A program made the position numbers and the translations under genes. Positions 9,688 through 24,334 of a stretch of 64,000 bases of DNA are shown here, piece by piece; position 1 is the first letter of the stretch, and every line of letters starts with the position of its first letter. This DNA is from a virus, in the IMG/VR virus record IMGVR_UViG_3300007734_000761, positions 96,001 to 160,000 of that record. The stretch is one strand, 5' to 3'. The notes under the pieces were generated by a model. The model was not told the DNA's origin. It saw nothing but the letters and a program-made list of their open reading frames with translations, and made no database searches.

Positions 9688-12080
9688 TATTTATTTTTTA
9701 ATATTTCAACTTCTGCTTTAAGTTCTTTAATAGCTTGTATCAATAAAGGTACTAATCTATCATAAAGAACTGTTTTATATTCACCCCATTCAGCTATTAC
9801 TTCAGGCATTACAGATTCAATTTCTTGAGCTATAACCCCAACTTCACGTTTACCTACTCTTGATGGAGCCATTTCTTCTGCTTCTGGAGTCCAATTAAAT
9901 CTAACACCTCTAATATGATCCATTAAATCTAAAGCTGAATCAATATTTTCTACATTTGTTTTTAATCTACCATCTGAGAAGAAGGCTATAATATTACCTG
10001 TAGCTCTAATTTCTCCAGCAATACCTGGTGCAGGAGTATTTACTCCTAATGAATTAATTTGAGCATCTGAGTTAGTTGTAAATCCACCTGTTGTTCCTTG
10101 AGCACCTGTAGGGCCAGGACCTCCTGTAGGACCTGTTGGGCCTGGAGAACCAGTAGGACCTGCTGGGCCTTGAGGACCAGTAGCACCTTGAGGACCTGTA
10201 CATCCTGTAGCACCTGGAGCACCTGTGTTACCTTGTGGACCTTGTGGACCTAAAGGACCTGTAGGACCCGTAGCTCCTTGAGCTCCAGTAGCGCCTTGAG
10301 GACCTGTAGGACCTGTTGGACCAGTTGGACCTGTAGCGCCTGCAAATCCTTGAACACCTTGTGGACCTGTTGGACCAGTTGGACCTGTACTTCCTTGAAC
10401 TCCTGGAGCGCCTGTTGGACCTTGAGGACCTGCTGGACCTTGAGGACCAGTTGCACCTGTGGATCCTTGGGCACCTGTAGCGCCTTGTGGACCTGTTGCT
10501 CCGGTTGTACCCTGAGCGCCTGTAGCGCCTTGTGGACCTTGTGGACCTGTTGCACCTTGAGGACCTGTTGCACCAGTTGTACCCTGAGCGCCTGTAGCGC
10601 CTTGAGGACCAGTTGATCCTGTAGCGCCTTGAGCACCAGTTGAACCTTGAGGACCGGTTGCACCCGCAAAACCTTGTACACCTTGTGGGCCAGTAGGACC
10701 TGTTGGACCTGTAGTTCCTTGAACTCCTGGGGCACCTGTGCTACCTTGTGGACCAGTAGGACCCGTAGGACCTGTTGCACCAGTAGTACCTTGAGCGCCT
10801 GTATTACCTTGAGGACCCTGTGGGCCAGTAGCACCTTGTGCACCTGTATTACCTTGAGGACCTTGTGGGCCTGTTGCTCCTGTAGCGCCTTGAGCACCAG
10901 TTGAACCTTGAGGACCTGTTGCACCAGTAGTACCTTGAGCTCCCGTATTTCCTTGTGGACCTTGAGGACCAGTAGGACCTGTAGCACCTACTATACCTTG
11001 AACACCTTGAGGACCTTGTGGACCTGTAGGGCCAGTTGTACCTTGAACTCCTGGAGCACCTGTAGGGCCTTGAGGACCTAAAGGACCTGTTGGGCCTGTA
11101 GTACCTTGTGCACCTGTTGCGCCTTGTGGACCTTGAGGACCTAAAGGACCTGTTGGACCCGTAGCGCCTTGAGCACCTGTAGCACCTTGAGGACCTGTTG
11201 CACCAGCGAAACCTTGTACACCTTGTGGACCTTGAGCTCCTTGAGGACCAGTAGTTCCTTGTATTCCAGGTGCTCCAGTAGTACCAGTTGTACCTTGTGC
11301 TCCTGTATTACCTTGAGGACCTTGAGCACCCGTTGTACCTTGAGCTCCTTGAGGACCTTGTGGACCTAACGGACCTGTTGGACCAGTAGCTCCTTGAGCT
11401 CCTGTATTACCTTGAGGACCTTGAGCTCCAGTAGTACCTTGTGCGCCTGTGTTACCTTGAGGACCAGTTGCTCCTGTAGTACCTTGAGCTCCGGTTGCTC
11501 CAGTAGCACCTACAATACCTTGAACACCTTGAGGACCTTGAGCTCCTACAGCACCTTGAATACCTTGAGGACCTTGAGGACCTAATGGACCAGTAGCTCC
11601 TTGAGCTCCAGTGTTACCTTGTGGACCTTGAGGACCTGTAGTACCTTGAGCGCCTGTATTTCCTTGAGGGCCTTGAGCACCTGTAGCGCCTTGAGCACCA
11701 GTTGAACCTTGAGGACCAGTAGTTCCTTGAGCTCCTGTAGCACCTTGTGGACCAGTTGTACCTTGAGCTCCTGTAGCACCTTGTGGACCAGTAGCACCTT
11801 GAGGGCCAGTTGGACCTGTTGTTCCTTGAGCACCTGTATTACCTTGAGGACCTTGAGGACCTGTTGCACCTTGAGGACCAGTTGCTCCAGTAGGTCCTGT
11901 AGAACCCTGAGCTCCTGTAGCACCTTGAATACTTGCTGCTGGTCCTCCATTTACAGAAATACTTACTCCTTGAGCAACTGCTGGTGTTCCAGTTGTTTGC
12001 ATAGTCAGTGTAACGGTTTGAGTACCATCAACAAACTTTAATATACCTGTAGCGGGTGTTATTTGGACGTTTTTTGCCAT
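9687..12080 (-). CDS. Collagen-like fibre protein with a C-terminal peptidase S74 intramolecular chaperone
   Basis: About 200 Gly-X-Y triplets ([12 protein letters not shown]), then [19 protein letters not shown]...[12 protein letters not shown]...[15 protein letters not shown]. Confidence 0.9.
10084..11935 (-). repeat. Gly-X-Y collagen coding repeat (9-nt period)
   Basis: Recurring gcaccttgaggacc-type units on the + strand. Confidence 0.9.
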
Positions 12081-12094: not shown

Positions 12095-15000
12095 TTATTC
12101 TCTAATATATTCTGTTATTAATTTATCTACATCTTTACGTTCACCGTATACTACATAATAACAATCTATATTACCTTCTTCAATTCCTATTGTCACTTTT
12201 TCAGGATTAGCTGATATTACATATAAGTTTTGTGGTTTACCTATTGAGGTTAAAGTTACTGTTATAGAATCTTCATGTACTAAATCAGTCCAATAATATG
12301 GTAATTCAATAGTGTTGTTATTAGTTAATCTACCTCTAACATATACACCAATTTCTGGACCTTCAAGTACTGAGTATCTTAATCTCCAAGGTTCTTTTTT
12401 AGTTGGGTGAATAATGTCAAAGTTTTTAATATTACCATTAATAATATCAAAATTAAGAACTCCACCAACAACAGCTCCACCAGGATTTATTGAACCTGCT
12501 CCTAAATCTAAGTTTCCTCCACCAGTGTCTATAGCACCCCCATTAGTATCAATACTACCACCTGCTAAATTAAGATTAGCACCACTATTTAAATTAAGTG
12601 TTGATCCATCAAATGTTAAATTAGCTTCACCATTAATTGTAGATGTACCTGTAGCGGTTAATACATAATTATCTGTATTATTAGTAATAGTAGTTGTACC
12701 TGATGTACCCGATGAACCACTTGAGCCAGATGTACCTGAACTTCCGCTAGTTCCATTTATACCTGATGTACCTGATGAACCTGAACTTCCACTTGTTCCT
12801 GAAGAACCGCTCGTTCCTGAAGTACCTGAAGCTCCGCTAGCTCCTGAAGTACCTGATGAACCACTTGAACCTGAAGTGCCACTTGAACCTGATGAGCCAC
12901 TTGTTCCTGATGAACCACTAGATCCAGATGTGCCTGAAGAACCGCTAGAACCTGAAGTTCCGCTTGAACCACTAGTACCGCTTGAACCTGAAGAACCGCT
13001 AGAACCTGATGTACCAGATGAACCTGAGCTGCCGCTCGTTCCTGATGAACCACTTGATCCACTTGTTCCTGAAGAACCTGAAGAACCACTTGTGCCTGAA
13101 GAACCTGAGGAACCACTTGTGCCTGAAGTACTATTAACTCCGCTTATACCAGAAGTACCAGATGATCCTGATGTTCCACTTGATCCACTTGAACCACTAG
13201 TTCCAGAAGAACCTGAGCTTCCACTTGTTCCTGATGAACCACTAGAACCTGATGTACCAGAAGAACCGCTTGTTCCACTTGAACCTGAAGAGCCTGATGT
13301 TCCACTTGATCCACTAGAACCTGAAGTGCCTGAACTTCCTGAAGTTCCTGATGATCCACTTGTTCCTGAGCTTCCGCTTGAACCTGAAGTGCCTGAACTA
13401 CCTGATGAACCTGATGTACCGCTTGAACCTGAAGAACCACTAGTACCTGAAGAACCTGATGTGCCAGATGATCCACTTGTTCCTGAGTTACCTGATGAAC
13501 CTGATGTTCCTGAACTTCCACTAGAACCACTAGTACCAGATGAACCTGAAGAACCACTTGTTCCGCTTGATCCTGAAGAACCTGATGTGCCTGATGATCC
13601 ACTTGAGCCAGATGTTCCAGAAGTACCGTTAACTCCACTTATACCTGATGTACCTGAGCTGCCACTTGATCCGCTTGTTCCTGAGGAACCTGAAGAACCG
13701 CTTGTTCCTGAACTTCCACTTGAACCTGATGTTCCACTTGATCCACTTGTTCCTGATGAACCCGAAGTTCCTGATGAACCACTTGATCCACTTGTTCCTG
13801 AAGAACCTGAACTTCCTGAAGTACCGCTTGAACCTGATGTGCCACTTGAGCCAGATGTTCCAGAAGAACCTGATGAACCAGACGTTCCTGAAGAACCGCT
13901 AGAACCTGAAGTACCACTTGAACCAGACGTTCCTGAACTACCTGATGTTCCACTTGTTCCAGATGCACCAGAATTTCCAGAAGAACCACTAGAACCTGAT
14001 GTTCCGCTTGAACCTGAACTACCTGAAGTTCCGCTTGAGCCTGATGTTCCTGAAGAACCGCTAGAACCTGAAGTTCCACTTGAACCTGATGAACCAGATG
14101 TTCCTGAAGAACCAGATGTTCCACTAGAACCTGAACTTCCGCTAGTTCCTGAAGAACCTGAAGAACCAGACGTTCCTGAAGAACCGCTAGAACCTGAAGT
14201 GCCAGAACTTCCACTTGAACCAGATGTTCCTGAACTACCACTAGTACCTGATGTACCGTTTACTCCGCTTATACCTGATGTTCCTGAAGATCCTGAGGAA
14301 CCTGATGTTCCACTAGAACCTGAAGAGCCTGATGTGCCAGAGCTACCTGATGTGCCTGATGAACCTGAAGTGCCACTAGAACCACTTGATCCACTTGTTC
14401 CAGATGAACCTGAACTTCCACTTGTTCCAGATGAACCTGATGAGCCACTAGTTCCTGATGATCCGCTTGTTCCTGATGATCCACTTGTACCTGAACTTCC
14501 ACTAGAACCACTAGTACCAGATGAACCTGAGCTTCCTGAAGTGCCTGAAGAACCTGATGTACCACTTGAGCCGCTAGAACCTGATGTTCCTGATGATCCT
14601 GAAGTACCAGATGAACCTGAAGTTCCACTTGAGCCGCTTGATCCAGATGTACCTGAAGAACCTGAGCTTCCACTTGTTCCTGATGAACCACTAGTTCCAC
14701 TTGAGCCAGAAGTACCAGATGAACCAGAAGTTCCTGAAGTACCATTAACACCACTTATACCTGAAGTGCCAGAACTACCACTAGTTCCACTTGAACCTGA
14801 TGTTCCACTAGAACCAGATGTTCCTGATGAACCACTAGTTCCTGAAGAGCCTGAGCTTCCGCTTGTTCCTGATGAACCACTAGTTCCACTTGAGCCAGAC
14901 GAACCTGAAGTTCCACTTGAGCCAGATGAACCTGAAGTTCCAGATGAACCTGATGTTCCTGAACTTCCTGAAGTGCCTGATGATCCTGAACTTCCGCTAG

Positions 15001-18000
15001 TTCCTGATGAACCACTTGAACCTGATGTGCCACTACTACCTGATGAGCCACTTGTTCCGCTTGAACCTGAAGAACCTGATGTACCACTTGATCCACTTGT
15101 TCCACTTGAACCACTAGTACCGGATGAGCCTGAGCTTCCACTTGTACCAGAACTGCCTGAACTGCCTGAAGTTCCAGAAGATCCACTAGTTCCGCTTGAT
15201 CCTGAAGAACCTGATGTACCTGAAGTGCCATTAACACCACTTATACCTGAAGTACCTGATGATCCTGAAGATCCTGATGTACCCGAACTACCAGACGAAC
15301 CTGAAGTGCCTGAAGAACCTGATGTACCTGAGCTACCGCTAGTTCCTGATGAACCACTTGTTCCACTTGAACCTGAACTTCCTGATGTACCCGATGAACC
15401 ACTTGAGCCAGATGTACCTGAACTTCCGCTAGTTCCACTTGAACCTGAAGTTCCTGATGAACCTGACGAGCCACTAGTTCCAGATGAACCTGATGTTCCA
15501 CTTGAACCACTTGTTCCACTAGAGCCTGATGTTCCTGAAGAACCTGAAGAACCACTTGTTCCAGATGAACCACTTGAACCAGATGTTCCTGAACTACCAC
15601 TAGTACCTGATGTACCATTTACTCCGCTTATACCTGATGTTCCACTTGAACCTGATGAACCTGATGTTCCACTAGAACCAGATGATCCTGATGTACCTGA
15701 ACTACCACTTGAGCCAGATGTTCCAGAAGACCCACTAGAACCTGAAGTTCCACTTGAACCTGATGTGCCTGAACTGCCAGAAGTTCCTGAGCTTCCACTT
15801 GTACCTGAAGTTCCTGAGCTACCGCTTGAACCTGAAGTACCTGAACTACCTGATGTTCCAGATGAACCGCTTGAACCTGAAGTGCCCGATGAACCGCTTG
15901 AACCTGATGTTCCGCTTGAACCTGAAGTGCCTGAGCTGCCACTTGAACCTGAGGTTCCGCTTGAACCTGATGTTCCTGAGGTGCCATTTACACCACTTAT
16001 ACCTGATGTACCAGATGAACCTGAAGTACCTGATGAGCCACTTGAACCACTAGTACCAGAAGAACCTGAACTACCTGATGTTCCTGAACTTCCACTAGTT
16101 CCACTTGAACCTGATGTTCCTGAACTTCCTGAAGTACCTGATGATCCCGAAGAACCACTAGTACCAGAAGAACCTGATGAACCTGATGTGCCAGAGCTAC
16201 CTGATGTGCCTGAACTACCTGAAGTACCACTAGAGCCTGATGTTCCTGAAGAACCTGAAGAACCACTTGTGCCTGATGAACCTGAACTTCCACTTGTACC
16301 AGAAGAACCTGATGAACCAGATGTGCCTGATGAACCTGAACTTCCACTTGTACCAGAAGATCCACTAGATCCTGAGGTGCCAGATGAACCTGAAGTGCCA
16401 GAAGAACCACTAGTACCTGATGTACCATTTACTCCGCTTATACCTGATGTTCCTGATGAACCTGATGTTCCTGATGAACCTGATGTTCCTGATGAACCAG
16501 AGCTACCTGAAGTTCCTGATGAACCTGATGTTCCACTAGAACCACTTGTTCCACTTGATCCTGAACTACCACTAGTACCTGAAGATCCACTTGAGCCACT
16601 AGTACCTGAAGAACCTGAAGTACCTGAAGAACCACTAGTACCTGAACTACCACTTGAGCCAGATGTTCCTGAGCTACCTGATGAACCTGATGTACCTGAA
16701 GATCCACTAGTACCTGAAGAGCCTGAAGTACCTGAAGAACCAGAGCTACCTGAAGTACCTGATGAACCTGATGAACCTGAAGTACCACTTGAACCTGATG
16801 TTCCTGAACTGCCAGAAGTACCTGAGCTTCCACTTGAACCTGAAGTTCCTGAACTGCCAGAAGTACCTGAGCTTCCACTTGAACCTGAAGTTCCTGAACT
16901 GCCAGAAGTACCTGAGCTTCCACTTGAACCTGACGTACCACTTGAGCCAGAAGTTCCAGAAGTTCCATTAACTCCACTTATACCTGAAGTGCCTGAAGAT
17001 CCGGATGTACCTGAACTGCCACTTGAGCCAGATGTACCTGAAGAGCCACTTGAACCTGATGTTCCTGATGAACCTGAAGATCCTGAAGTACCTGATGAAC
17101 CGCTTGTTCCACTAGAACCAGATGATCCTGATGTACCTGAACTGCCAGAAGTACCACTTGAACCTGAAGAACCACTTGTTCCACTTGAACCACTTGAACC
17201 TGAGGTGCCACTTGATCCGCTTGTTCCGCTAGAACCCGATGTTCCTGATGAACCACTTGTTCCTGATGAACCGCTTGAACCTGAAGTACCTGATGTACCA
17301 TTTACTCCGCTTATACCTGAAGTACCTGAAGATCCTGATGTACCTGAAGAACCTGATGTTCCTGAAGATCCACTTGAGCCAGATGTTCCTGATGAACCTG
17401 AGCTGCCTGAGGTTCCTGAAGAACCGCTAGTACCGCTTGAACCTGAACTTCCACTTGTTCCACTTGAACCTGATGAACCGGAAGTACCACTACTACCGCT
17501 TGTACCTGATGAACCTGATGATCCTGAAGTACCAGATGAGCCACTTGTTCCTGAAGAACCAGATGTCCCTGAACTTCCTGAAGAACCTGATGTTCCACTT
17601 GAACCACTTGTTCCTGATGAACCAGAGCTGCCTGATGTTCCTGAAGAACCTGAGGTTCCTGATGAGCCACTTGTTCCTGATGAACCTGAAGATCCTGAAG
17701 TACCTGATGAACCGCTTGTTCCTGATGAACCACTAGTACCTGAAGTACCATCTACTCCACTTATACCTGATGTACCACTAGATCCTGAAGATCCTGAAGT
17801 ACCTGATGAACCACTTGAGCCAGATGTTCCTGATGAACCTGATGAACCGCTAGTACCACTTGAACCTGAAGTACCAGATGAACCTGATGTTCCAGAAGAA
17901 CCACTAGTACCTGATGATCCACTAGATCCTGAAGTACCAGATGAACCTGATGAACCTGAGGTTCCTGAAGAACCGCTAGTTCCACTTGAACCTGAGGTTC

Positions 18001-21000
18001 CACTAGAACCCGATGAACCTGAAGTTCCTGAACTTCCTGATGAACCTGATGTGCCGCTTGAACCGCTAGTACCTGATGAACCTGATGTTCCTGATGAGCC
18101 ACTAGTTCCTGAAGAACCGCTTGAACCTGAGGTGCCACTTGAACCACTAGATCCTGAAGTGCCAGATGAACCTGAAGAGCCTGAAGTACCAGATGAACCT
18201 GACGTTCCAGATGAACCTGAAGTTCCAGATGTACCATTTACACCACTTATACCTGATGTACCACTAGATCCTGAAGATCCTGAAGTACCTGATGAACCTG
18301 AAGAACCTGATGTTCCTGAAGAACCTGAGGTTCCTGAAGAACCGCTTGAGCCAGAGGAACCTGAAGATCCGCTTGTTCCACTTGAACCTGAAGACCCAGA
18401 TGTTCCTGATGAACCTGAACTTCCTGAAGTGCCACTTGAACCAGATGTTCCGGATGAACCACTTGTACCACTTGAACCTGAAGAACCTGAGGTTCCAGAT
18501 GAACCTGATGATCCTGAAGTGCCACTACTTCCACTAGTTCCTGAAGAGCCTGAAGTACCAGATGATCCTGAAGATCCTGAAGTTCCACTTGAACCTGAAG
18601 AACCTGAGGTGCCACTTGAACCTGAAGAACCTGAGGTACCACTTGAACCAGAAGTTCCGCTTGAGCCACTAGTACCTGACGAACCGCTAGTGCCTGATGT
18701 ACCATCCACACCACTTATACCTGAAGTACCTGAGCTACCTGAAGTTCCGGATGAACCACTTGAACCAGAAGTTCCGGATGAACCTGAAGTACCACTAGAG
18801 CCTGATGTTCCTGATGAACCACTTGAACCACTTGTTCCGGATGATCCGGAAGTGCCTGATGAACCACTAGTACCTGACGATCCGCTTGAACCAGACGTTC
18901 CTGATGAACCACTTGAACCAGAAGTTCCTGAAGAACCGCTAGTTCCACTTGATCCTGAAGTGCCACTTGAACCTGAAGATCCTGATGTTCCTGATGAACC
19001 ATTTGTTCCACTAGAACCAGATGATCCTGATGTGCCAGATGAACCTGAACTACCACTTGTTCCACTTGAACCTGAAGAACCTGAAGTTCCAGATGAACCT
19101 GATGAGCCACTGGTTCCTGAAGAACCAGAAGTTCCGCTTGAGCCACTAGTACCTGATGTACCGTCAACTCCACTTATACCTGAAGTACCTGAGCTACCGC
19201 TCGTACCTGATGAACCACTTGAGCCAGATGTACCACTAGATCCTGAAGAACCTGATGTTCCACTAGAACCGCTAGTTCCAGATGAGCCTGATGTACCTGA
19301 ACTTCCACTAGTTCCTGATGAACCACTTGAACCACTTGAACCAGAAGTTCCTGAAGAACCACTTGTTCCACTTGAACCACTTGTTCCTGATGAACCTGAC
19401 GTTCCAGATGAACCAGATGTCCCTGAACTTCCTGAAGAACCTGATGTTCCACTTGAACCTGAAGTACCAGATGAACCTGAACTTCCACTAGTTCCTGAAG
19501 AACCAGAAGATCCTGAAGTACCTGATGAACCTGACGTTCCAGATGAACCTGACGTTCCAGATGAACCTGAGCTACCTGCGGTTCCTGAAGAACCACTTGT
19601 CCCAGATGAACCAGAAGTACCTGACGTACCATCAACTCCACTTATACCTGAAGTGCCGCTTGAACCTGAAGTACCAGATGAACCTGAACTTCCGCTAGTT
19701 CCTGATGAACCACTTGAGCCAGATGTACCAGAAGAACCGCTTGTTCCACTTGAACCTGATGTTCCTGAAGAACCTGATGAACCCGAGGTACCTGAACTGC
19801 CACTAGTACCTGATGAACCTGAAGTGCCAGATGAACCTGATGAACCTGAAGTTCCTGAAGAACCTGAGCTGCCTGATGTGCCAGATGAACCTGAGGTTCC
19901 TGAAGAACCACTAGAACCAGACGTTCCTGAGCTGCCTGATGTACCACTAGAACCGCTAGTGCCTGATGAACCTGAAGATCCTGAAGTGCCTGATGAGCCA
20001 CTTGAACCACTTGTACCACTTGAACCTGAAGATCCTGAAGTACCTGATGAACCAGAGGTGCCACTTGAGCCGCTAGTTCCGGATGAACCAGAAGTACCTG
20101 ACGTGCCATCTACTCCACTTATACCTGAAGTACCTGAGCTGCCTGAACTACCTGATGTGCCTGAACTACCAGAGCTGCCTGATGTGCCTGAACTGCCGCT
20201 TGAACCAGATGTACCTGATGAACCACTAGTACCTGAACTACCTGACGTACCACTTGAGCCAGAAGATCCTGAAGTACCAGAACTACCTGACGAACCACTA
20301 GTCCCACTTGAACCTGAACTTCCACTTGTTCCTGATGAACCTGAACTTCCTGACGTACCACTTGAGCCAGAAGTGCCAGAACTACCTGATGTTCCTGATG
20401 AACCACTTGAGCCAGATGTACCTGATGTGCCATCTACTCCACTTATACCTGAAGTACCACTACTTCCTGAGGAACCAGAAGTACCTGATGAACCACTTGT
20501 TCCTGATGAACCTGAAGTGCCACTTGATCCACTAGAACCTGATGTTCCTGAAGAACCTGACGTACCACTTGAGCCGCTTGAACCACTTGTTCCACTTGAA
20601 CCTGATGAACCTGAAGTACCACTAGAACCAGATGTTCCACTACTACCACTTGTACCATCAATCCCAGAAGTACCTGATGAACCACTTGTGCCTGAACTAC
20701 CTGATGTTCCTGATGTTCCGTTTATACCTGAAATTCCAGAAGTTCCTGAGCTGCCACTTGAACCTGAAGTACCACTAGAACCAGAACTACCTGATGTTCC
20801 TGAACTTCCTGAAGAACCTGAGGTTCCACTACTACCACTTGTACCTGATGATCCTGAACTACCTGATGTTCCTGAACTGCCGCTCGTTCCTGATGAACCT
20901 GATGTACCTGAAGATCCTGAAGTGCCTGATGAGCCTGAAGATCCTGAAGTACCGGAACTACCTGAAGTGCCACTTGAACCTGATGTACCACTTGAACCAC

Positions 21001-22489
21001 TAGTGCCTGAGGATCCTGAAGTACCTGATGAGCCACTAGAACCAGAAGTTCCTGAACTACCTGAAGTTCCTGATGAACCTGATGAACCATCAACTCCACT
21101 TAAACCTGAAGTACCCGAAGTACCAGATGAGCCTGATGAGCCACTAGTACCTGATGATCCACTTGTTCCTGAAGAACCTGAACTACCTGACGTGCCACTT
21201 GAGCCAGATGTTCCCGAACTTCCACTTGAACCACTTGTACCTGATGAACCTGAGCTTCCTGAAGTACCAGACGAACCTGATGTTCCTGAACTTCCGCTAG
21301 TTCCACTTGAACCTGAACTTCCACTAGTTCCTGAAGAACCGCTTGAGCCAGATGTTCCCGAACTTCCACTAGTTCCTGAAGAACCGCTTGAGCCAGATGT
21401 ACCTGATGAACCACTTGTTCCACTACTTCCTGAAGTGCCAGATGAGCCTGAGCTACCTGAAGTACCAGATGAACCACTTGTTCCTGAGCTTCCGCTTGTA
21501 CCGGATGAACCTGATGAACCGCTAGTTCCACTTGAACCTGAACTTCCGCTAGTTCCTGAAGAACCACTTGAGCCAGATGTACCTGACGAACCGCTTGTTC
21601 CTGAAGAACCACTTGTTCCACTTGAACCAGATGAACCAGATGTTCCTGAGCTTCCACTTGTTCCACTTGAACCTGAAGTACCTGAAGAACCACTTGAACC
21701 TGAAGTACCTGAAGAACCACTTGAGCCAGATGTGCCTGATGAACCGCTAGTTCCTGATGAACCAGATGTTCCACTTGTTCCGCTTGAACCTGATGTTCCT
21801 GAAGTGCCAGATGAACCGCTAGTACCTGATGAACCACTAGAACCTGATGTTCCACTTGAACCACTTGTACCTGATGAACCAGATGTGCCTGATGAACCTG
21901 AGCTGCCACTTGTACCAGATGAGCCAGATGTTCCTGATGAACCTGACGTGCCTGAACTACCCGAAGTGCCAGAAGAACCAGATGTACCATTTGTACCTGA
22001 AGTACCGTTTGTGCCAGATGTTCCACTAGTTCCTGAAGTTCCTGAACTACCACTAGTTCCTGAGGTTCCTGAACTGCCACTAGTACCTGATGTTCCACTT
22101 GTGCCAGATGTACTAAAATCAGCTATTGGAGCATATGTAAATTGTCCAGAACTAGTATCATATGTTATAAAATAACCTGATGAAGAGTTTTCACTTACTC
22201 CTAAAACTATAAAAGGATTTGAACCTGAAATTAATAATGATCCAGTAATTACAGCTGAACCTGAAAACGGAAATCCTGCTCCTCCACTACCTGAAGAAGC
22301 TATTCCATAACTAACTAATCCTGTTGCTGGATCATATGTTAAATTATATGAGGCTGAAAGATCATTTTCTACTCCAATAAGTGTTAATGGGTTTGAGCCT
22401 GAAATTATTACACTCTCACTAATGCTACCTGTAATAGATAAATCATTAGATAAATACCACCCTAACTGTTCTGGTCTTACTCTTGCCAT
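12095..22489 (-). CDS. Giant 3464-aa Ser/Gly/Thr-repeat virion fibre protein
   Basis: Short unique N-terminus, about 3100 aa of G-S-S/G-T-S triplets, then a C-terminal fibre-type region (NYVLTATG...GEANLTFDG; KNFDIIHP...LEGPE.GVYVRG...IELP.YW..LV). Confidence 0.85.
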   Translation of the reverse strand: MARVRPEQLGWYLSNDLSITGSISESVIISGSNPLTLIGVENDLSASYNLTYDPATGLVSYGIASSGSGGAGFPFSGSAVITGSLLISGSNPFIVLGVSENSSSGYFITYDTSSGQFTYAPIADFSTSGTSGTSGTSGSSGTSGTSGSSGTSGTSGTSGTNGTSGTNGTSGSSGTSGSSGTSGSSGTSGSSGTSGSSGSSGTSGSSGTSGSSGTSGSSGSSGTSGSSGTSGTSGSSGTSGTSGSSGTSGSSGTSGSSGSSGTSGSSGSSGTSGSSGTSGSSGTSGSSGSSGTSGSSGTSGSSGTSGSSGSSGTSGSSGSSGTSGSSGSSGTSGSSGTSGSSGTSGSSGSSGTSGSSGTSGSSGTSGSSGSSGTSGSSGTSGSSGSSGTSGSSGSSGTSGSSGTSGSSGTSGSSGSSGTSGSSGSSGTSGSSGTSGSSGSSGTSGSSGTSGSSGSSGTSGTSGLSGVDGSSGSSGTSGSSGTSGSSGSSGTSGSSGTSGSSGTSGSSGTSGSSGTSGSSGSSGTSGSSGTSGSSGTSGSSGTSGSSGSSGTSGSSGTSGSSGSSGTSGSSGSSGTSGSSGSSGTSGISGINGTSGTSGSSGTSGSSGTSGIDGTSGSSGTSGSSGTSGSSGSSGTSGSSGSSGTSGSSGTSGSSGSSGTSGSSGTSGSSGTSGSSGSSGTSGISGVDGTSGTSGSSGSSGTSGSSGTSGSSGTSGSSGSSGTSGSSGSSGTSGSSGSSGTSGSSGSSGTSGSSGTSGSSGTSGSSGSSGTSGSSGSSGTSGSSGSSGTSGISGVDGTSGTSGSSGTSGSSGTSGSSGTSGSSGSSGTSGSSGSSGTSGSSGSSGTSGSSGTSGSSGTSGSSGSSGTSGSSGTSGSSGSSGTSGSSGSSGTSGSSGTSGSSGTSGSSGSSGTSGSSGTSGSSGTSGSSGSSGTSGSSGSSGTSGSSGTSGISGVDGTSGTSGSSGTSGSSGTAGSSGSSGTSGSSGTSGSSGTSGSSGSSGTSGSSGSSGTSGSSGTSGSSGSSGTSGSSGTSGSSGTSGSSGTSGSSGTSGSSGSSGSSGTSGSSGTSGSSGTSGSSGTSGSSGSSGTSGSSGSSGTSGSSGTSGISGVDGTSGTSGSSGTSGSSGTSGSSGSSGTSGSSGSSGTSGSSGSSGTSGSSGSSGTNGSSGTSGSSGSSGTSGSSGTSGSSGTSGSSGSSGTSGSSGSSGTSGSSGTSGSSGTSGSSGSSGTSGSSGTSGSSGTSGSSGSSGTSGSSGTSGISGVDGTSGTSGSSGTSGSSGTSGSSGTSGSSGSSGTSGSSGSSGTSGSSGSSGTSGSSGTSGSSGTSGSSGSSGTSGSSGSSGTSGSSGTSGSSGTSGSSGSSGTSGSSGSSGTSGSSGSSGSSGSSGTSGSSGTSGSSGSSGTSGSSGSSGTSGISGVNGTSGTSGSSGTSGSSGTSGSSGSSGTSGSSGSSGTSGSSGSSGTSGSSGTSGSSGTSGSSGTSGSSGSSGTSGSSGSSGTSGSSGTSGSSGTSGSSGSSGTSGSSGSSGTSGSSGTSGSSGTSGSSGTSGSSGSSGTSGSSGSSGTSGSSGSSGTSGISGVDGTSGTSGSSGTSGSSGTSGSSGSSGTSGSSGTSGSSGTSGSSGSSGTSGSSGTSGSSGSSGTSGSSGTSGSSGTSGSSGSSGTSGSSGTSGSSGSSGTSGSSGSSGTSGSSGTSGSSGSSGTSGSSGSSGTSGSSGTSGSSGTSGISGVNGTSGTSGSSGSSGTSGSSGTSGSSGTSGSSGTSGSSGSSGTSGSSGSSGTSGSSGTSGSSGSSGTSGSSGTSGSSGSSGTSGSSGSSGTSGSSGSSGTSGSSGTSGISGVNGTSGTSGSSGTSGSSGSSGTSGSSGTSGSSGSSGTSGSSGTSGSSGSSGTSGSSGTSGSSGTSGSSGSSGTSGSSGSSGTSGSSGTSGSSGTSGSSGSSGTSGSSGSSGTSGSSGTSGSSGTSGSSGSSGTSGSSGSSGTSGSSGTSGSSGTSGSSGSSGTSGSSGTSGSSGTSGISGVNGTSGTSGSSGTSGSSGTSGSSGSSGTSGSSGSSGTSGSSGSSGTSGSSGSSGTSGSSGSSGTSGSSGTSGSSGTSGSSGTSGSSGSSGTSGSSGSSGTSGSSGTSGSSGTSGSSGTSGSSGSSGTSGSSGSSGTSGSSGTSGISGVNGTSGTSGSSGTSGSSGSSGTSGSSGTSGSSGSSGTSGSSGSSGTSGSSGTSGSSGSSGTSGTSGSSGTSGSSGTSGSSGTSGSSGSSGTSGSSGSSGTSGSSGSSGTSGSSGSSGTSGISGVNGTSGTSGSSGTSGSSGSSGTSGSSGSSGTSGSSGTSGSSGTSGSSGTSGSSGSSGTSGSSGTSGSSGTSGSSGSSGTSGSSGSSGTSGSSGTSGSSGTSGSSGTSGSSGSSGTSGSSGSSGTSGISGVNGTSGTSGSSGSSGTSGSSGTSGSSGSSGTSGSSGSSGTSGSSGTSGSSGTSGSSGSSGTSGSSGSSGTSGSSGSSGTSGSSGSSGTSGSSGTSGSSGTSGSSGSSGTSGSSGSSGTSGSSGTSGSSGSSGTSGSSGTSGSSGTSGSSGTSGSSGTSGISGVNGTSGTSGSSGTSGSSGTSGSSGTSGSSGSSGTSGSSGSSGTSGSSGTSGSSGTSGSSGSSGTSGSSGTSGSSGSSGTSGSSGSSGTSGSSGTSGSSGTSGSSGSSGTSGSSGSSGTSGSSGSSGTSGSSGTSGSSGTSGSSGSSGTSGSSGSSGTSGISGVNGTSGTSGSSGTSGSSGSSGTSGSSGSSGTSGSSGSSGTSGSSGSSGTSGSSGTSGSSGSSGTSGSSGSSGTSGSSGTSGSSGSSGTSGSSGSSGNSGASGTSGTSGSSGTSGSSGTSGSSGSSGTSGSSGSSGTSGSSGTSGSSGTSGSSGSSGTSGSSGSSGTSGSSGTSGSSGTSGSSGSSGTSGSSGSSGTSGSSGSSGTSGISGVNGTSGTSGSSGSSGTSGSSGSSGTSGSSGSSGTSGSSGSSGTSGSSGNSGTSGSSGTSGSSGTSGSSGSSGTSGSSGSSGTSGSSGSSGTSGSSGTSGSSGTSGSSGSSGTSGSSGSSGTSGSSGTSGSSGSSGTSGSSGSSGTSGSSGSSGTSGSSGTSGISGVNSTSGTSGSSGSSGTSGSSGSSGTSGSSGSSGTSGSSGSSGTSGSSGSSGSSGTSGSSGTSGSSGSSGTSGSSGSSGTSGSSGSSGTSGSSGSSGTSGASGASGTSGTSGSSGTSGSSGSSGTSGINGTSGSSGTSGSSGSSGTSGTTTITNNTDNYVLTATGTSTINGEANLTFDGSTLNLNSGANLNLAGGSIDTNGGAIDTGGGNLDLGAGSINPGGAVVGGVLNFDIINGNIKNFDIIHPTKKEPWRLRYSVLEGPEIGVYVRGRLTNNNTIELPYYWTDLVHEDSITVTLTSIGKPQNLYVISANPEKVTIGIEEGNIDCYYVVYGERKDVDKLITEYIRE
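12696..22112 (-). repeat. ~9.4-kb degenerate 9-nt coding tandem repeat (GSS/GTS) with periodic GISGV(N/D)G punctuation
   Basis: Directly visible. Spacings between punctuation marks are all multiples of 9 nt. Confidence 0.95.
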
Positions 22490-22490
22490 C

Positions 22491-23720
22491 TTATTGGAAT
22501 TTTCCTATTATTAATACAGAATCTGGGTTAGGGCTTGAAGGTGAATTTAATTCAAATCCTAAACCAGACAATGATGTGTTAAACGTAAATACTATATCAT
22601 TTCCAATTTGTTGTAAATTAAAGAAATTAGGTTCTGTGTTAATTCCGTTTATTAATACAATAAATTGATTTTTTCCTGTTGGTGGTAATGGGTCAGGAGC
22701 AACCATAATTTGTTTACCATATAAAGTAGCTTGATTCGTACTAGTTACAATAGCTAAAGCTGAATTATTTGTATTTAAATATTGTGATACTGCTGCAAAT
22801 GATGCTGGGGTTATTATTGGTGGACTTAGTGGATTCACATTCGTTATTTTTGGTTTTTTTACATTTACTGGAATTATTAAATCATCTACTGCATATTCGT
22901 TAAAAATTACTTGACCTTTACTTACATATGCCATATCATGTGATAAATATGCATTTATAGTGTCGGGTATTAAATAACCATGTAATTTCATTGTGATTTT
23001 ACTAACAACAGTTCTTTCTTCTTCTGCTGAGTATTGAACAGATGTTGGAAAAGACTCTATATTTACTCTAAAATAATAACGATTTTTATCTCCCCAATAA
23101 CTATTTTCAGCATATTGTACAGCTTCAAGTATTCTATTGGATTGTTCTACAAAATCTGCATAAATATTTAATTCATATGTAATAGTAACATAATCTGGGT
23201 GTGCTACCACCATCATTTCTTTTACTGGTTGGCGATTATTTAACACATTAAAATTATCATAAGCATTTTTATTGGTAAATTGTCTTTCAAAAACATGAAC
23301 GTTTTGAGCTAAATTACCATCAAGATTTCTACCTACATTACGATTTTTTGTTACATCTGTTCTGTTAACTACAATAAGAGGAGCAATAATTTTACCACTT
23401 ACATCACGTAAAAATCCTTCTTTTTGCATTGCTACCCATCTTTCAGGATAAGCATATATTACAGGAACATCAATAAGTTCTGTATTACTGTATACTGTAG
23501 GTTTAATGTTATTTTTAATATGTTCTAATACAGCCGTATCAATATCAATTAATTTAACACTAAAATTTTTCTCTCTAGTGCCTTTTTGTGATACTTTTAA
23601 AGCTCTATTAGGTTTACTAACCATAGGCTCTTTACCATAACTAGCAAGTTCATAAGGTACAATTTTATCTTGTACTTCTTGTGCGGGAGTTTTAGGTATA
23701 GGTTTTCTTACTTGAGCCAT
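22491..23720 (-). CDS. Tail terminator/sheath stabiliser-like protein (T4 gp15-like) with a C-terminal extension
   Basis: DIDTAV, VPVIYA.PERW, PDYVTITYEL.IY and EQ.N.I.E motifs; follows the two neck genes. Confidence 0.55.
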   Translation of the reverse strand: MAQVRKPIPKTPAQEVQDKIVPYELASYGKEPMVSKPNRALKVSQKGTREKNFSVKLIDIDTAVLEHIKNNIKPTVYSNTELIDVPVIYAYPERWVAMQKEGFLRDVSGKIIAPLIVVNRTDVTKNRNVGRNLDGNLAQNVHVFERQFTNKNAYDNFNVLNNRQPVKEMMVVAHPDYVTITYELNIYADFVEQSNRILEAVQYAENSYWGDKNRYYFRVNIESFPTSVQYSAEEERTVVSKITMKLHGYLIPDTINAYLSHDMAYVSKGQVIFNEYAVDDLIIPVNVKKPKITNVNPLSPPIITPASFAAVSQYLNTNNSALAIVTSTNQATLYGKQIMVAPDPLPPTGKNQFIVLINGINTEPNFFNLQQIGNDIVFTFNTSLSGLGFELNSPSSPNPDSVLIIGKFQ

Positions 23721-24334
23721 TATTGTATTTTATAAGGTAAAATATTAAGTTTAATAGGTCTAGTCATTATTGTATCTAATTCAAATACTAAACTTTGACC
23801 TCTTTTATTTAAACTACTACTTTCAAAATTAGAAGCACCATAGATATATTGATCATCATTACCGAAATCAATCCAGTTTTCGTTTACATTATAAACTTCA
23901 TAGTATCTTTCTCTATCTAAAATAATGTCTCCTACTTCAGGCATTACTCCAATTTTAAGCATCATTTCATGTACAAACCAGAATTGAGATTTTTGTGTAT
24001 TACTTACACCATAATCTTCTACTATTTGAAGTTCATCACCTCTATCAATATAACATTTAATAAGAACAGGTTGATAGTACCATTTTGAAGTACTTTCACC
24101 ATAGATATTTGTAGATGAATTAGTAGCACTTATTTTATAATAAGGCACTTGCATTGACATTAATCTTTTATAAGCTTCTGTAATAGAAGTTACTTGAAAA
24201 TCAATGTCATTACCTGGAGCAAAGGGCATAGGTCTAGCTAATCCATCTGGTTGAGATGGTAAAGCTTCATAATCACCGGGGGTGGTAACTTTTTGGCCTG
24301 GTACTCTGAAAAATGCTCCTGGTTTGTTAGTCAT
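23720..24334 (-). CDS. Neck/head-completion protein (T4 gp14-like)
   Basis: NIYGES..K.Y..PV.I, PEVGDII...YYEV motifs; gene position. Confidence 0.6.
   Translation of the reverse strand: MTNKPGAFFRVPGQKVTTPGDYEALPSQPDGLARPMPFAPGNDIDFQVTSITEAYKRLMSMQVPYYKISATNSSTNIYGESTSKWYYQPVLIKCYIDRGDELQIVEDYGVSNTQKSQFWFVHEMMLKIGVMPEVGDIILDRERYYEVYNVNENWIDFGNDDQYIYGASNFESSSLNKRGQSLVFELDTIMTRPIKLNILPYKIQ

What the first reader, a model, noticed from the sequence alone, without database searches (positions are those of the whole stretch)
12696..22112. Proline-free collagen-like register kept over ~1040 triplets; potential ~0.9-micron fibre
Every third residue is Gly, with X/Y almost only Ser/Thr. The one clear break I saw is GVNSTS near 13130. 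If extended as a triple helix or polyglycine-II/PPII chain (~0.29 nm per residue), the region would be about 0.9 um long, far longer than a capsid. It could instead fold into a compact PPII bundle like snow-flea antifreeze protein. Its place right after the neck genes suggests a whisker or collar appendage.
Basis: partly seen in the sequence, partly recalled or inferred. Interest (0 to 1): 0.8.

Follow-up and report, generated by a model that had tools for sequence, protein, structure and literature searches.

The report
Giant proline-free collagen-like phage fibre
A 176-kb uncultured water phage, related to a Flavobacterium phage, encodes a real 3,464-residue fibre protein whose shaft is 1,046 Gly-Ser/Thr-Ser triplets with no proline and almost no charge. 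It is probably a three-chain, sugar-coated, collagen-type thread up to about 0.9 micrometre long, which would break the known rules for collagen stability.

Summary
A minus-strand ORF at 12095-22489 (3,464 aa) holds 1,046 in-register Gly-X-Y triplets (12692-22105) with one Gly-to-Ser slip at 13130-13132, no proline and only 8 Asp.

It is not an assembly artefact:
- the longest exact DNA repeat in the tract is 89 nt;
- synonymous sites are scrambled;
- three other metagenomic contigs carry 3.1-3.5-kaa versions.

The gene starts 1 nt after the stop codon of a T4 gp15-like tail-terminator gene. That slot (terminator, then fibre genes, then sheath) is hypervariable.

The protein has three parts:
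- a swappable N-terminal anchor;
- the shaft, punctuated by 19 GISGV(N/D) motifs;
- a C-terminal beta-sandwich knob from a very large unannotated family. The knob is modelled as a homotrimer and resembles phage receptor-binding tips and H-type lectins.

A close relative fuses the same shaft to a Pro-collagen segment and an S74 trimer-chaperone domain. About 8.4 kb downstream lies a GT4 fused to a true TibC/Aah-type serine O-heptosyltransferase, with methyltransferases.

Best reading: a parallel homotrimeric, probably O-glycosylated, collagen-like virion fibre. Triple-helix formation, glycosylation and virion location are untested. This scan has met the same class before in at least 34 other genomes. 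I found no published description.

The parts
12095..22489 (-). Giant fibre gene, 3,464 aa, 284 kDa unmodified, 5.9% of the 176,311-bp genome
22106..22489 (-). N-terminal anchor, aa 1-128. It has two ~55-aa modules, each ending in a ..TYD..(S/T)G...Y motif. Relatives carry the same anchor on many different distal parts.
12692..22105 (-). Proline-free Gly-X-Y shaft of 1,046 triplets. Pfam Collagen (PF01391) scores 243 bits on a 501-aa piece, against a cut-off of 27.2.
13133..21106 (-). Array of 19 hydrophobic punctuation motifs G(I/L)SG(V/I)(N/D), spaced 96-210 aa apart. GVD lies in the N-terminal half and GVN in the C-terminal half. The motif is also present in L004 and L007.
13130..13132 (-). 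The only register fault: a Gly codon replaced by Ser (AGT), a one-base change with no frame shift
12437..12691 (-). Gly/Asn/Thr-rich linker, aa 3267-3351, between shaft and knob. It lies in the modelled trimer interface.
12098..12436 (-). C-terminal beta-sandwich knob, about aa 3352-3464. It matches phrog_17490 and 3,845 clusters in the 1.84-billion-protein library, and has no Pfam family.
22491..23720 (-). Tail terminator (T4 gp15-like), 409 aa, with a C-terminal extension absent from ~290-aa homologues. Its stop lies 1 nt before the giant gene's ATG.
23720..25935 (-). Two neck-region genes. The 533-aa product has a weak head-tail adaptor match and is 31% identical to the 'head completion' protein of phage immuto. 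The 204-aa product is unassigned.
9687..12080 (-). Second fibre, 797 aa, with 205 ordinary collagen triplets (X = Pro 79, Ala 71; Y = Thr 96, Gln 88) and a Peptidase_S74 chaperone domain
8794..9687 (-). Laminin_G_3 / concanavalin-like protein, 297 aa, 33% identical to an annotated structural protein of immuto
8167..8754 (-). 2OG-Fe(II) oxygenase of the PKHD/PiuC type, 195 aa
3677..8170 (-). Sugar-modification block: a 327-aa protein (glycoside-hydrolase-130-like, a lead only), a 406-aa protein (weak GT/methyltransferase matches), an FkbM methyltransferase (245 aa), a Methyltransf_24 / rhamnosyl-O-methyltransferase-like protein (194 aa), and a 324-aa protein of unknown kind
1392..3668 (-). GT4 glycosyltransferase fused to a TibC/Aah-type protein-serine O-heptosyltransferase. 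Residues 422-748 match PDB 4RAP at E 5e-37. TIGR04414 scores 214 bits against a cut-off of 200. All four iron-finger Cys are kept.
2..1333 (-). N-terminal part of the tail sheath gene (731 aa in full). Tube and baseplate hub genes follow outside the window.

Best explanation
The gene encodes a late-expressed virion fibre made of three identical parallel chains. A small N-terminal anchor fixes it to the particle, most likely near the neck or tail terminator, whose gene it directly follows. The 3,138-residue Gly-Ser/Thr-Ser shaft forms a collagen-type triple helix with Gly packed on the axis. A C-terminal lectin-like beta-sandwich knob holds the three chains together, sets their register and binds a surface ligand, probably a glycan. 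The shaft has neither proline nor charge pairs. I infer that it is stabilised by its Ser/Thr hydroxyls and, probably, by O-linked sugars added in the cytoplasm by the TibC-type serine glycosyltransferase encoded nearby, then extended and methylated by the adjacent GT4 and methyltransferases. The irregularly spaced GISGV(N/D) motifs would help to lock the chains in register. The thread (897 nm contour, a few hundred nm effective reach) would enlarge the phage's capture radius for hosts or particles in dilute water.

Shown: gene, register, selection on the register, conservation in relatives, genomic context, family membership of the glycosyltransferase.
Modelled only: the trimer.
Inferred: triple helix, glycosylation, attachment site, function.
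For: 1. The gene is real and under selection. Gly fills 1,045 of 1,046 positions while codons are scrambled, and the longest exact DNA repeat is 89 nt. Thr at X follows a strict local rule: Thr-Thr neighbours number 34 against 179 expected, and Ser-Ser-Ser runs 4 against 167 expected.

2. It recurs in independent assemblies.
- L004: 3,246 aa from the start Met (open frame 3,251 aa) with 1,007 triplets.
- L007: at least 3,521 aa with 1,109 unbroken triplets.
- L006: 3,122 aa with 782 triplets of GIQ/GTQ/GSQ type.
- L030: 1,593 aa with 426 triplets.
The X/Y chemistry changes between these while the Gly period stays.

3. Evidence for a trimer.
- Three copies of aa 3225-3464 were modelled as a complex. 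The median score was 0.88 and the best of 3 controls 0.00. That mark was reached by 20 of 30 proteins solved as pairs of one chain and by 1 of 23 solved as single chains. The runs agree in at least 86% of contacts and the partner's pLDDT is at least 82.
- Confident contacts include construct residues 16, 19, 22, 25 and 28, which are Gly positions of the shaft.
- L004 carries the same shaft fused to a Pro-collagen segment and Peptidase_S74 at 58 bits.
- Shorter GTS/GSS fibres P0214 and P0216 also end in S74.

4. The knob looks like a fibre tip. The AlphaFold2 model has pLDDT 83.5. The best structural matches are the Pam1 tailspike receptor-binding domain (Z 7.9, rmsd 2.0, 66 residues aligned), the discoidin I H-type lectin (Z 6.5), the R2 pyocin fibre foot (Z 6.4) and the AP22 gp53 fibre (Z 6.3). 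The domain always sits at the extreme C-terminus of fibre-like proteins of 126 to about 4,500 aa.

5. Structural context. The gene lies between the gp15-like terminator and the sheath. In 19 related loci this slot holds from zero to several fibre genes. Near-identical backbones (95-99% aa identity) carry different cassettes.

6. Link to glycosylation. The BAHT domain passes the NCBIfam equivalog cut-off and keeps all four iron-finger Cys. TibC modifies Ser and not Thr (PMC4358343), and Y is Ser in 97.5% of triplets here. The enzyme also occurs in the contigs of L004 and L006. Of 37 viral loci of at least 12 kb that carry this enzyme, 17 have a collagen-like ORF upstream on the same strand, and 7 of those are proline-free GSS/GTS shafts (an eighth lies on an 8.2-kb locus). 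None of 5 comparable loci fetched through the terminator gene has one.
Against: - No experiment shows a triple helix. No known collagen lacks both imino acids and charge networks; a review gives X = 19% Pro across bacterial collagens (PMC8968730).
- The trimer is a model only. Phage fibre tips and collagens are well represented among solved structures, so the pass may reflect memory.
- The structural matches of the knob are middling (Z below 8).
- The Gln/Ile-type relatives show that Ser, and so Ser glycosylation, is not required for this architecture.
- The phage has no GmhA-like heptose-pathway gene, so the sugar donor is unknown.
- The glycosyltransferase could act on the neighbouring Pro-collagen fibre or on host targets.
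- The attachment site is inferred from gene order only. In S-SSM7 the knob family sits near baseplate genes, and the N-terminus of L006 weakly matches a capsid cement protein.
Confidence: 0.55

Rival explanations
1. The shaft is a disordered, mucin-like tether. The three chains are joined only at the knob, and perhaps at the anchor. Between them the Ser/Thr-rich shaft is an unstructured, heavily O-glycosylated bottle-brush that acts as a flexible leash or steric coat rather than a triple helix.
For: There is no Pro and no charge, so a helix has no known source of stability. The Ser/Thr content is extreme and a serine O-glycosyltransferase with methyltransferases lies nearby. The order of the GSSGTS and GSSGSSGTS units is nearly random, with no sharp long-range period.
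Against: A disordered linker does not need Gly at every third residue. Yet 1,045 of 1,046 positions hold Gly despite saturated synonymous change. The Gly period also survives a complete change of X/Y chemistry in L006 and L030. In L004 the shaft runs without a break into a conventional Pro-collagen and an S74 chaperone. The model places shaft Gly residues at the trimer axis.
Confidence: 0.2
2. The chain folds into a compact or chain-folded polyproline-II / polyglycine-II bundle, as in snow-flea antifreeze protein or the PGII sandwich of T-even gp38 adhesins. This would give a much shorter and thicker body.
For: The tract has a Gly-X-X period with small side chains. Glycine-rich PGII structures occur in phage fibre tips; this is my own knowledge and the literature search gave only indirect hits.
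Against: No turn-forming or capping motifs occur at a 10-15-residue period. Blocks of 96-210 residues are uniform. Gly is only one third of residues, with no GG pairs, and the whole protein has one Cys. Parallel trimer modules sit at the ends of this protein and its relatives, which fits a parallel rather than an antiparallel arrangement.
Confidence: 0.1
3. The protein is real but is not part of the virion. It could be released at lysis or displayed on the infected cell, for example as an aggregation matrix, a decoy or a surface coat.
For: No proteomic evidence exists for this phage. The pelagimyophage literature reads glycosyltransferases in such islands as modifiers of the host surface (PMC7029224).
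Against: The gene is translationally coupled to the tail terminator gene, inside the head-neck-tail late block. The N-anchor and C-knob families belong to fibre-like proteins; the knob-bearing gene of phage immuto is annotated as tail fibre-like and its neighbours as structural proteins. No signal peptide or membrane segment is visible at the N-terminus.
Confidence: 0.07
4. The tract is an assembly artefact, or a decaying repeat that no longer functions.
For: The record is metagenome-assembled. Many public contigs break at the start of the repeat (P0230-P0235; L036, L038 and L040).
Against: The longest exact repeat is 89 nt and the codons are scrambled. The frame stays open for 10.4 kb with intact terminal domains. 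Three other contigs from at least two other samples carry versions of 3.1-3.5 kaa.
Confidence: 0.03

Closest known systems
Collagen-like tail-fibre proteins of phages and prophages (Smith et al. 1998 'Bacteriophage collagen'; E. coli O157 prophage collagens, PMC3368898; P-SSM2 orf028, PMC1079782)
   Same: A Gly-X-Y shaft inside a phage fibre, flanked by non-collagen trimer modules. S74 chaperone domains occur in relatives. Pfam PF01391 scores far above its cut-off.
   Different: Those shafts have tens to a few hundred triplets and contain proline. This one has 1,046 triplets, no Pro and 8 charged residues. Its contour length of ~0.9 um is several times that of any phage fibre I know of.
BclA, the collagen-like exosporium filament of Bacillus anthracis and B. 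cereus
   Same: A hydroxyl-rich Gly-X-Y filament with a C-terminal beta-sandwich trimer knob. BclA is O-glycosylated, and methylated sugars are part of its glycan (glycosylation is described in PMC8968730; the methylated sugars are my own knowledge). Here methyltransferases of the FkbM and rhamnosyl-O-methyltransferase kinds lie nearby.
   Different: BclA repeats are mostly GPT, so they contain Pro, and the filament is about 60 nm long. The knob here matches phage receptor-binding tips and H-type lectins, not C1q/TNF. Glycosylation is not shown here.
TibC-TibA and Aah-AIDA-I (bacterial autotransporter heptosyltransferases, BAHT)
   Same: The neighbouring enzyme meets TIGR04414 and keeps the iron finger. 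TibC hyper-glycosylates Ser, not Thr, in a long repetitive adhesin in the cytoplasm (PMC4358343).
   Different: The presumed substrate would be a collagen-like thread, not a beta-helix autotransporter. The enzyme is fused to a GT4 domain and encoded by a phage. The phage genome has no heptose pathway.
T4 fibritin (wac) whiskers
   Same: A trimeric fibre gene placed among the neck genes, with a small C-terminal trimerising domain.
   Different: Fibritin is a ~50-nm alpha-helical coiled coil with a foldon. Nothing here is a coiled coil, and attachment to the neck is not shown.
Cuticle collagens of vent worms and annelids, with glycosylated Thr at Y
   Same: Very long triple helices in which a glycosylated hydroxy-amino acid at Y replaces hydroxyproline (my own knowledge; the same lead appears in note e1-5724630).
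   Different: Those collagens still have Pro at X, and they are animal extracellular matrix.

Membership tests
Collagen triple-helix repeat proteins (Pfam PF01391; bacterial and phage collagen-like proteins) | Gly at every third residue over long uninterrupted runs | tested here: met
   1,045 of 1,046 positions hold Gly; the longest unbroken run is 997 triplets
Collagen triple-helix repeat proteins (Pfam PF01391; bacterial and phage collagen-like proteins) | Profile score above Pfam's gathering threshold | tested here: met
   243 and 231 bits on two ~500-aa pieces, against a cut-off of 27.2
Collagen triple-helix repeat proteins (Pfam PF01391; bacterial and phage collagen-like proteins) | A known stabilising chemistry: imino acids at X/Y (about 19-31% Pro at X in bacteria) or dense charge and hydration networks | tested here: not met
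   0 Pro, 0 Lys/Arg/Glu and 8 Asp in 3,138 residues. Reference values come from PMC8968730.
Collagen triple-helix repeat proteins (Pfam PF01391; bacterial and phage collagen-like proteins) | An adjacent trimerisation or registration domain | tested here: inconclusive
   The knob is modelled as a homotrimer: score 0.88 against a best control of 0.00. The mark was reached by 20 of 30 proteins solved as pairs of one chain and 1 of 23 solved as single chains; contact agreement at least 86%; pLDDT at least 82. This is a model only. Relative L004 has S74.
Collagen triple-helix repeat proteins (Pfam PF01391; bacterial and phage collagen-like proteins) | A physical triple helix (CD, melting, protease resistance, EM) | not testable with these tools
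   Needs recombinant protein or virions
S74-chaperoned trimeric fibres (Peptidase_S74, PF13884) | A C-terminal intramolecular chaperone domain | tested here: not met
   The C-terminus of the giant protein has no Pfam hit. The domain is present in the next gene and in the fused L004 homologue.
Snow-flea antifreeze / polyglycine-II bundle proteins | Short PPII segments of about 10 residues joined by turns, Gly well above one third of residues, and disulfide or capping residues | tested here: not met
   Blocks of 96-210 residues are uniform, Gly is exactly one third, no GG pairs occur, and the protein has one Cys
BclA-type glycosylated collagen filaments | O-glycosylated hydroxy-amino acids in the repeat | not testable with these tools
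   Only co-location with glycosyl- and methyltransferases can be shown
BclA-type glycosylated collagen filaments | A C1q/TNF-like C-terminal trimer domain | tested here: inconclusive
   The knob is a beta-sandwich whose best matches are phage receptor-binding tips and H-type lectins at Z 5-8. C1q/TNF folds are not among the listed rows.
Bacterial autotransporter heptosyltransferases (TIGR04414), for the neighbouring enzyme at 1392-3668 | Equivalog profile score above the curated cut-off, and four iron-finger Cys | tested here: met
   214.2 bits against a cut-off of 200. The equivalents of Cys-339, 342, 358 and 370 all align with 4RAP.
Bacterial autotransporter heptosyltransferases (TIGR04414), for the neighbouring enzyme at 1392-3668 | Uses ADP-heptose on Ser of a cognate repetitive adhesin | not tested
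   Neither donor nor acceptor is known. The phage has no SIS_2 (GmhA-type) gene.
T4 fibritin-type whiskers | A coiled-coil shaft with a foldon, attached to the gp13/gp14 neck | tested here: not met
   The shaft is Gly-X-Y, not heptads. Only the position next to neck genes is shared.

The most novel reading that the evidence does not exclude
The shaft is a true collagen triple helix about 0.9 um long that holds together with no proline, no hydroxyproline and no charge pairs. It would be stabilised by Ser/Thr hydroxyls and by dense O-glycosylation from a phage-borne TibC-type enzyme, and used by the phage as a neck-anchored 'fishing line' tipped with a lectin. That would be a third, undescribed way to stabilise collagen, the first BAHT substrate that is not an autotransporter, and the longest virion appendage known.
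Probability: 0.3. Interest if true: 0.85.

Novelty: new variant of a known kind. Interest (0 to 1): 0.72.

Why it matters
For collagen biophysics, this would be a natural, strongly selected 1,000-triplet Gly-X-Y sequence with none of the accepted stabilisers. It makes a direct test possible of whether hydroxyl/hydration networks or O-glycans alone can hold a triple helix together. It also offers a simple, proline-free, hydroxylase-independent design for recombinant collagen-like materials.

For phage biology, a thread several times longer than the whole virion would change the physics of host encounter in dilute water. It sits in a hypervariable cassette between the tail terminator and the sheath, and near-identical phages swap that cassette.

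For glycobiology, TibC/Aah-type serine glycosyltransferases turn out to be common in aquatic phages. At least 141 viral stretches encode a relative of the enzyme, and in 17 of the 37 loci of 12 kb or more it lies just downstream of a collagen-like fibre gene.

Tried and rejected
- Pfam found nothing for the N-anchor or the knob. PHROGs gave only families of unknown function.
- The PDB sequence search with the knob gave nothing meaningful. Foldseek against the PDB gave only weak rows, E 0.02 or worse. VIA-align gave middling Z of 5-8.
- The homologue search with the shaft and with the knob at 'near' lengths did not return the IMG/VR relatives. The 56 giant knob-bearing proteins are not Gly-X-Y. 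No other protein had more than 235 such triplets, but only 8,000 candidates were scored, so this is not exhaustive.
- The record behind L007 is not held, so the full length of that protein is unknown.
- Heptose pathway: no SIS_2 gene, and only a sub-threshold cytidylyltransferase-like stretch.
- Pfam did not recognise the 409-aa protein or its 12 homologues. Its AlphaFold2 model is poor overall (pLDDT 52), but its core matched gp15.
- The three unassigned genes of the sugar block have no PDB sequence match.
- Thr at the X position shows no sharp long-range period.
- I did not run the sigma-70 promoter scan, because the likely host group uses other promoters. The ATATTTAT motif is only mildly enriched (20 matches against 11.8 expected).
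- Four literature searches for proline-free or giant phage collagens found no description. The library lacks most subscription journals.
Full report
**What is there.** The window is part of a single 176,311-bp viral record, at bases 96001-160000. IMG/VR classes the record as linear and CheckV estimates it 100% complete. On the minus strand an ORF runs from 22489 to 12095 and encodes 3,464 residues. From aa 129 to aa 3266 (window 12692-22105) every third residue is Gly. That makes 1,046 triplets, with one Gly-to-Ser substitution (AGT) at aa 3120, window 13130-13132.

Triplet counts are GSS 568, GTS 427, GIS 18, GVN 11 and GVD 7, with a few others. X is Ser or Thr (568 and 433). Y is Ser in 1,020 triplets. 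The tract has no Pro, Lys, Arg or Glu, and only 8 Asp. The 3,099-aa ORF on the plus strand is the antisense shadow of the repeat.

**Not an artefact, and under selection.** At the DNA level the repeat is degenerate. Tandem Repeats Finder reports mostly 60-85% matches. The longest exact repeat in 9,414 nt is 89 nt. The 373 identical GSSGTS hexapeptides are written in 222 DNA versions, with third-position identity of 0.43. Codon usage alone would give about 0.40. So synonymous sites are close to random while Gly is conserved 1,045 times out of 1,046.

Thr at X obeys a strict local rule. It recurs every 2 or 3 triplets (191 and 202 cases). Thr-Thr neighbours number 34 against 179 expected, and Ser-Ser-Ser runs 4 against 167 expected. 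There is no sharp long-range period.

**Architecture.**
- *N-terminal anchor (aa 1-128).* It has two ~55-aa modules. It recurs on very different proteins: complete forms of 185-192 aa, proteins of about 430-1,070 aa with only 18-56 GTS/GSS triplets, and forms with F5/8 type C (discoidin-type) or S74 domains.
- *Shaft.* It is cut into blocks of 96-210 aa by 19 hydrophobic motifs G(I/L)SG(V/I)(N/D). GVD lies towards the N-terminus and GVN towards the C-terminus. The same motif punctuates the relatives L004 and L007, with spacings that cluster near 48, 100, 150 and 210 aa.
- *Linker and knob.* After a Gly/Asn-rich linker comes a ~115-aa C-terminal domain. It matches phrog_17490 (unknown function) and no Pfam family. 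It belongs to a very large family: 3,845 clusters at E up to 1e-3 among 1.84 billion representatives. The domain always sits at the extreme C-terminus, on proteins of 126 to about 4,500 aa. Among isolates it occurs in cyanomyoviruses and in the 'tail fibre-like' gene of Flavobacterium phage immuto.
- *Knob structure.* The AlphaFold2 model (pLDDT 83.5) is a beta-sandwich. The best structural neighbours are the Pam1 tailspike receptor-binding domain (Z 7.9, rmsd 2.0, 66 residues), the discoidin I H-type lectin (6.5), the R2 pyocin fibre foot (6.4) and the AP22 gp53 fibre (6.3). These Z values are middling, but the list is dominated by trimeric fibre tips and lectins.

**Trimer.** Three copies of aa 3225-3464 were modelled with an alignment of 35 rows. 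The complex scored 0.88 (median of 0.79, 0.88 and 0.92), against a best control of 0.00. In calibration that mark was reached by 20 of 30 proteins solved as pairs of one chain and by 1 of 23 solved as single chains. The runs agree in at least 86% of contacts and the partner's pLDDT is at least 82. The confident interface covers the linker and the conserved LEGPE core. It also includes construct residues 16, 19, 22, 25 and 28, which are Gly positions of the shaft. This supports a parallel homotrimer but does not show one. Similar fibre tips and collagens have been solved, so the pass may come from memory.

**Relatives.**
- *L004.* This contig is 89-99% identical in MCP, PhoH and the neck proteins. 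It carries a 3,246-aa homologue (from the start Met; the open frame is 3,251 aa) with the same anchor. Its 785 proline-free GSS/GTS triplets run, after 2-residue interruptions, into 222 Pro-containing triplets and a Peptidase_S74 chaperone domain at 58 bits.
- *L003.* This contig is from the same sample and is equally close. It has the anchor on a 191-aa protein, followed by other fibre genes.
- *L007.* It has at least 1,109 unbroken triplets and the same knob at 64% identity. Its 5' end lies beyond the fetched stretch.
- *L006 and L030.* This more distant phage has a 3,122-aa protein with 782 proline-free triplets of GIQ/GTQ/GSQ/GTI type and the same knob at 71% identity. Directly after its terminator gene it also has a 1,593-aa protein with the same anchor module and 426 such triplets.

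The Gly period and great length therefore persist while the X/Y chemistry is replaced. That argues for a structural need for Gly rather than a composition effect. S74 domains on the same kind of shaft (L004, P0214, P0216) tie it to the class of parallel trimeric fibres.

**Context.** All genes in this region lie on the minus strand. In transcription order they are:
1. large terminase, portal, prohead protease, major capsid protein and PhoH;
2. a 533-aa protein (weak adaptor match), a 204-aa protein and a 409-aa protein;
3. the giant gene;
4. a 797-aa Pro-containing collagen with S74;
5. a Laminin_G_3 protein;
6. a 2OG-Fe(II) oxygenase;
7. several sugar-related genes;
8. a GT4-BAHT fusion;
9. 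tail sheath, tube and baseplate hub.

The 409-aa protein is a tail terminator. Its model is poor overall (pLDDT 52), but its core matches T4 gp15 (4HUD, E 1.8e-7) and the T4 portal-neck-tail complex (9MKB, E 7.6e-8). A language-model search pointed the same way. The giant gene's ATG lies one base after that gene's stop codon.

In 19 related viral loci the order terminator, then zero to several fibre genes, then sheath and tube is kept. Some small relatives go straight from terminator to sheath. This is a host-recognition-type variable cassette, like the island described in pelagi- and cyanomyophages (PMC7029224). Attachment at the neck is therefore plausible, but it rests on gene order alone.

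**Glycosylation lead.** Note e1-5724641 pointed to residues 422-748 of the 758-aa protein at 1392-3668. I tested this. They match TibC (4RAP) at E 5e-37, with all four iron-finger cysteines aligned. The protein passes the NCBIfam equivalog TIGR04414 at 214.2 bits against a cut-off of 200. TibC adds heptose to Ser but not Thr of a repetitive adhesin (PMC4358343). Here Y is Ser in 97.5% of triplets.

The enzyme is also present on the contigs of L004 (86% identity) and L006 (36%). It is rare in cultured phages, with matches in 4 records, but common in IMG/VR, where at least 141 stretches encode a relative. Of 37 such loci of at least 12 kb, 17 have a collagen-like ORF upstream on the same strand. 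Seven of those 17 are proline-free GSS/GTS shafts of 52-392 triplets; an eighth such shaft lies on an 8.2-kb locus. None of the 5 terminator-selected loci of similar size has one, though that control is small.

FkbM, Methyltransf_24 (rhamnosyl-O-methyltransferase-like) and GT4 domains lie beside it. The phage has no GmhA-type gene, so the donor sugar is unknown. The Gln/Ile-type relatives show that Ser glycosylation cannot be a universal requirement of this architecture.

**Verdict.** The most likely reading (about 0.55) is a parallel homotrimeric collagen-type virion fibre, probably O-glycosylated, with an exchangeable anchor and a lectin-like tip. Its contour is about 0.9 um, and its worm-like-chain reach is roughly 0.16-0.4 um for persistence lengths of 15-100 nm.

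The rivals are:
- a disordered glycosylated tether (0.2);
- a PPII/polyglycine-II bundle (0.1);
- a protein that is not part of the virion (0.07);
- an assembly artefact (0.03).

Collagen-like phage fibres have been known since 1998 (cited in PMC1079782; PMC3368898). The new points are the absence of proline and charge, the roughly 1,000-triplet length and the BAHT neighbour. This scan has reported the same class in at least 34 other genomes. I found no published description.

Noticed in passing
window 1392-3668 (-): A phage-encoded fusion of a GT4 glycosyltransferase with a true TibC/Aah-type serine O-heptosyltransferase. Relatives are frequent in IMG/VR (at least 141 stretches encode one) but were found in only 4 records of the phage genome collection: Microcystis phage Mel-JY01, where it is fused to an FkbM methyltransferase, and three records of uncultured megaphages.
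   Followed up: yes
window 9687-12080 (-) and 8167-8754 (-): A 797-aa fibre with 205 ordinary collagen triplets (X = Pro or Ala, Y = Thr or Gln) and an S74 chaperone domain lies two genes upstream of a PKHD/PiuC-type 2OG-Fe(II) oxygenase. The oxygenase is a possible prolyl hydroxylase for this fibre and is conserved at 55% identity in L006.
   Followed up: partly
L003 and L004 (IMG/VR sample 3300042894) compared with window 12095-25935: Phages from one sample are 89-99% identical in MCP, PhoH and the neck proteins but carry three different fibre cassettes behind the same N-anchor: a 191-aa stub, a 3,251-aa frame fused to collagen and S74, and the 3,464-aa form with the knob. This is modular swapping at one slot.
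   Followed up: yes
window 12098-12436 (-) and proteins P0061-P0208: The C-terminal knob is a very large unannotated domain family: 3,845 clusters, no Pfam entry, with invariant K..F.I.HP...L....LEGPE..VY.RG and ERKD motifs. It sits at the very end of fibre-like proteins of all sizes, including giants of 4,300-4,500 aa that have no Gly-X-Y shaft.
   Followed up: partly
L006:1238-2947 (+): The 570-aa N-terminal region of the 3,122-aa Gln/Ile-type giant scores marginally for Phage_cement_2 (24.4 bits against a cut-off of 24). That hints that this variant may be anchored on the capsid rather than at the neck.
   Followed up: no
window 22491-23720 (-) compared with L041-L050: The gp15-like tail terminator is 402-413 aa in the large phages but about 290 aa in smaller relatives. 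The extra ~120 C-terminal residues could be a docking platform for the fibre anchor.
   Followed up: no
window minus strand at 1355, 12087, 25944, 26679, 29986, 31710, 35456 and others: The motif ATATTTAT lies a few bases upstream of many late-gene start codons (sheath, collagen-S74 fibre, the 533-aa neck gene, PhoH, portal) but not upstream of the giant gene. The giant gene is instead coupled to the terminator gene. Enrichment overall is modest: 20 matches against 11.8 expected.
   Followed up: partly
P0230-P0235; L036, L038, L040: Many public contigs and predicted proteins stop right at the start of the repeat or inside the terminator gene. Short-read assemblies therefore often break here, and the family is under-represented in protein databases.
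   Followed up: no
window 7187-8170 (-): A 327-aa protein with no family or PDB sequence match. A language-model search places it near viral clusters in which about a third of members carry glycoside hydrolase family 130 (PF04041). This is a lead only.
   Followed up: partly
window 12876-22175 (+): A 3,099-aa open frame (PEEPLVPDEP...) lies antisense to the repeat, and many 100-330-aa shadow ORFs occur in the third minus-strand frame. Gene callers could annotate these by mistake.
   Followed up: yes
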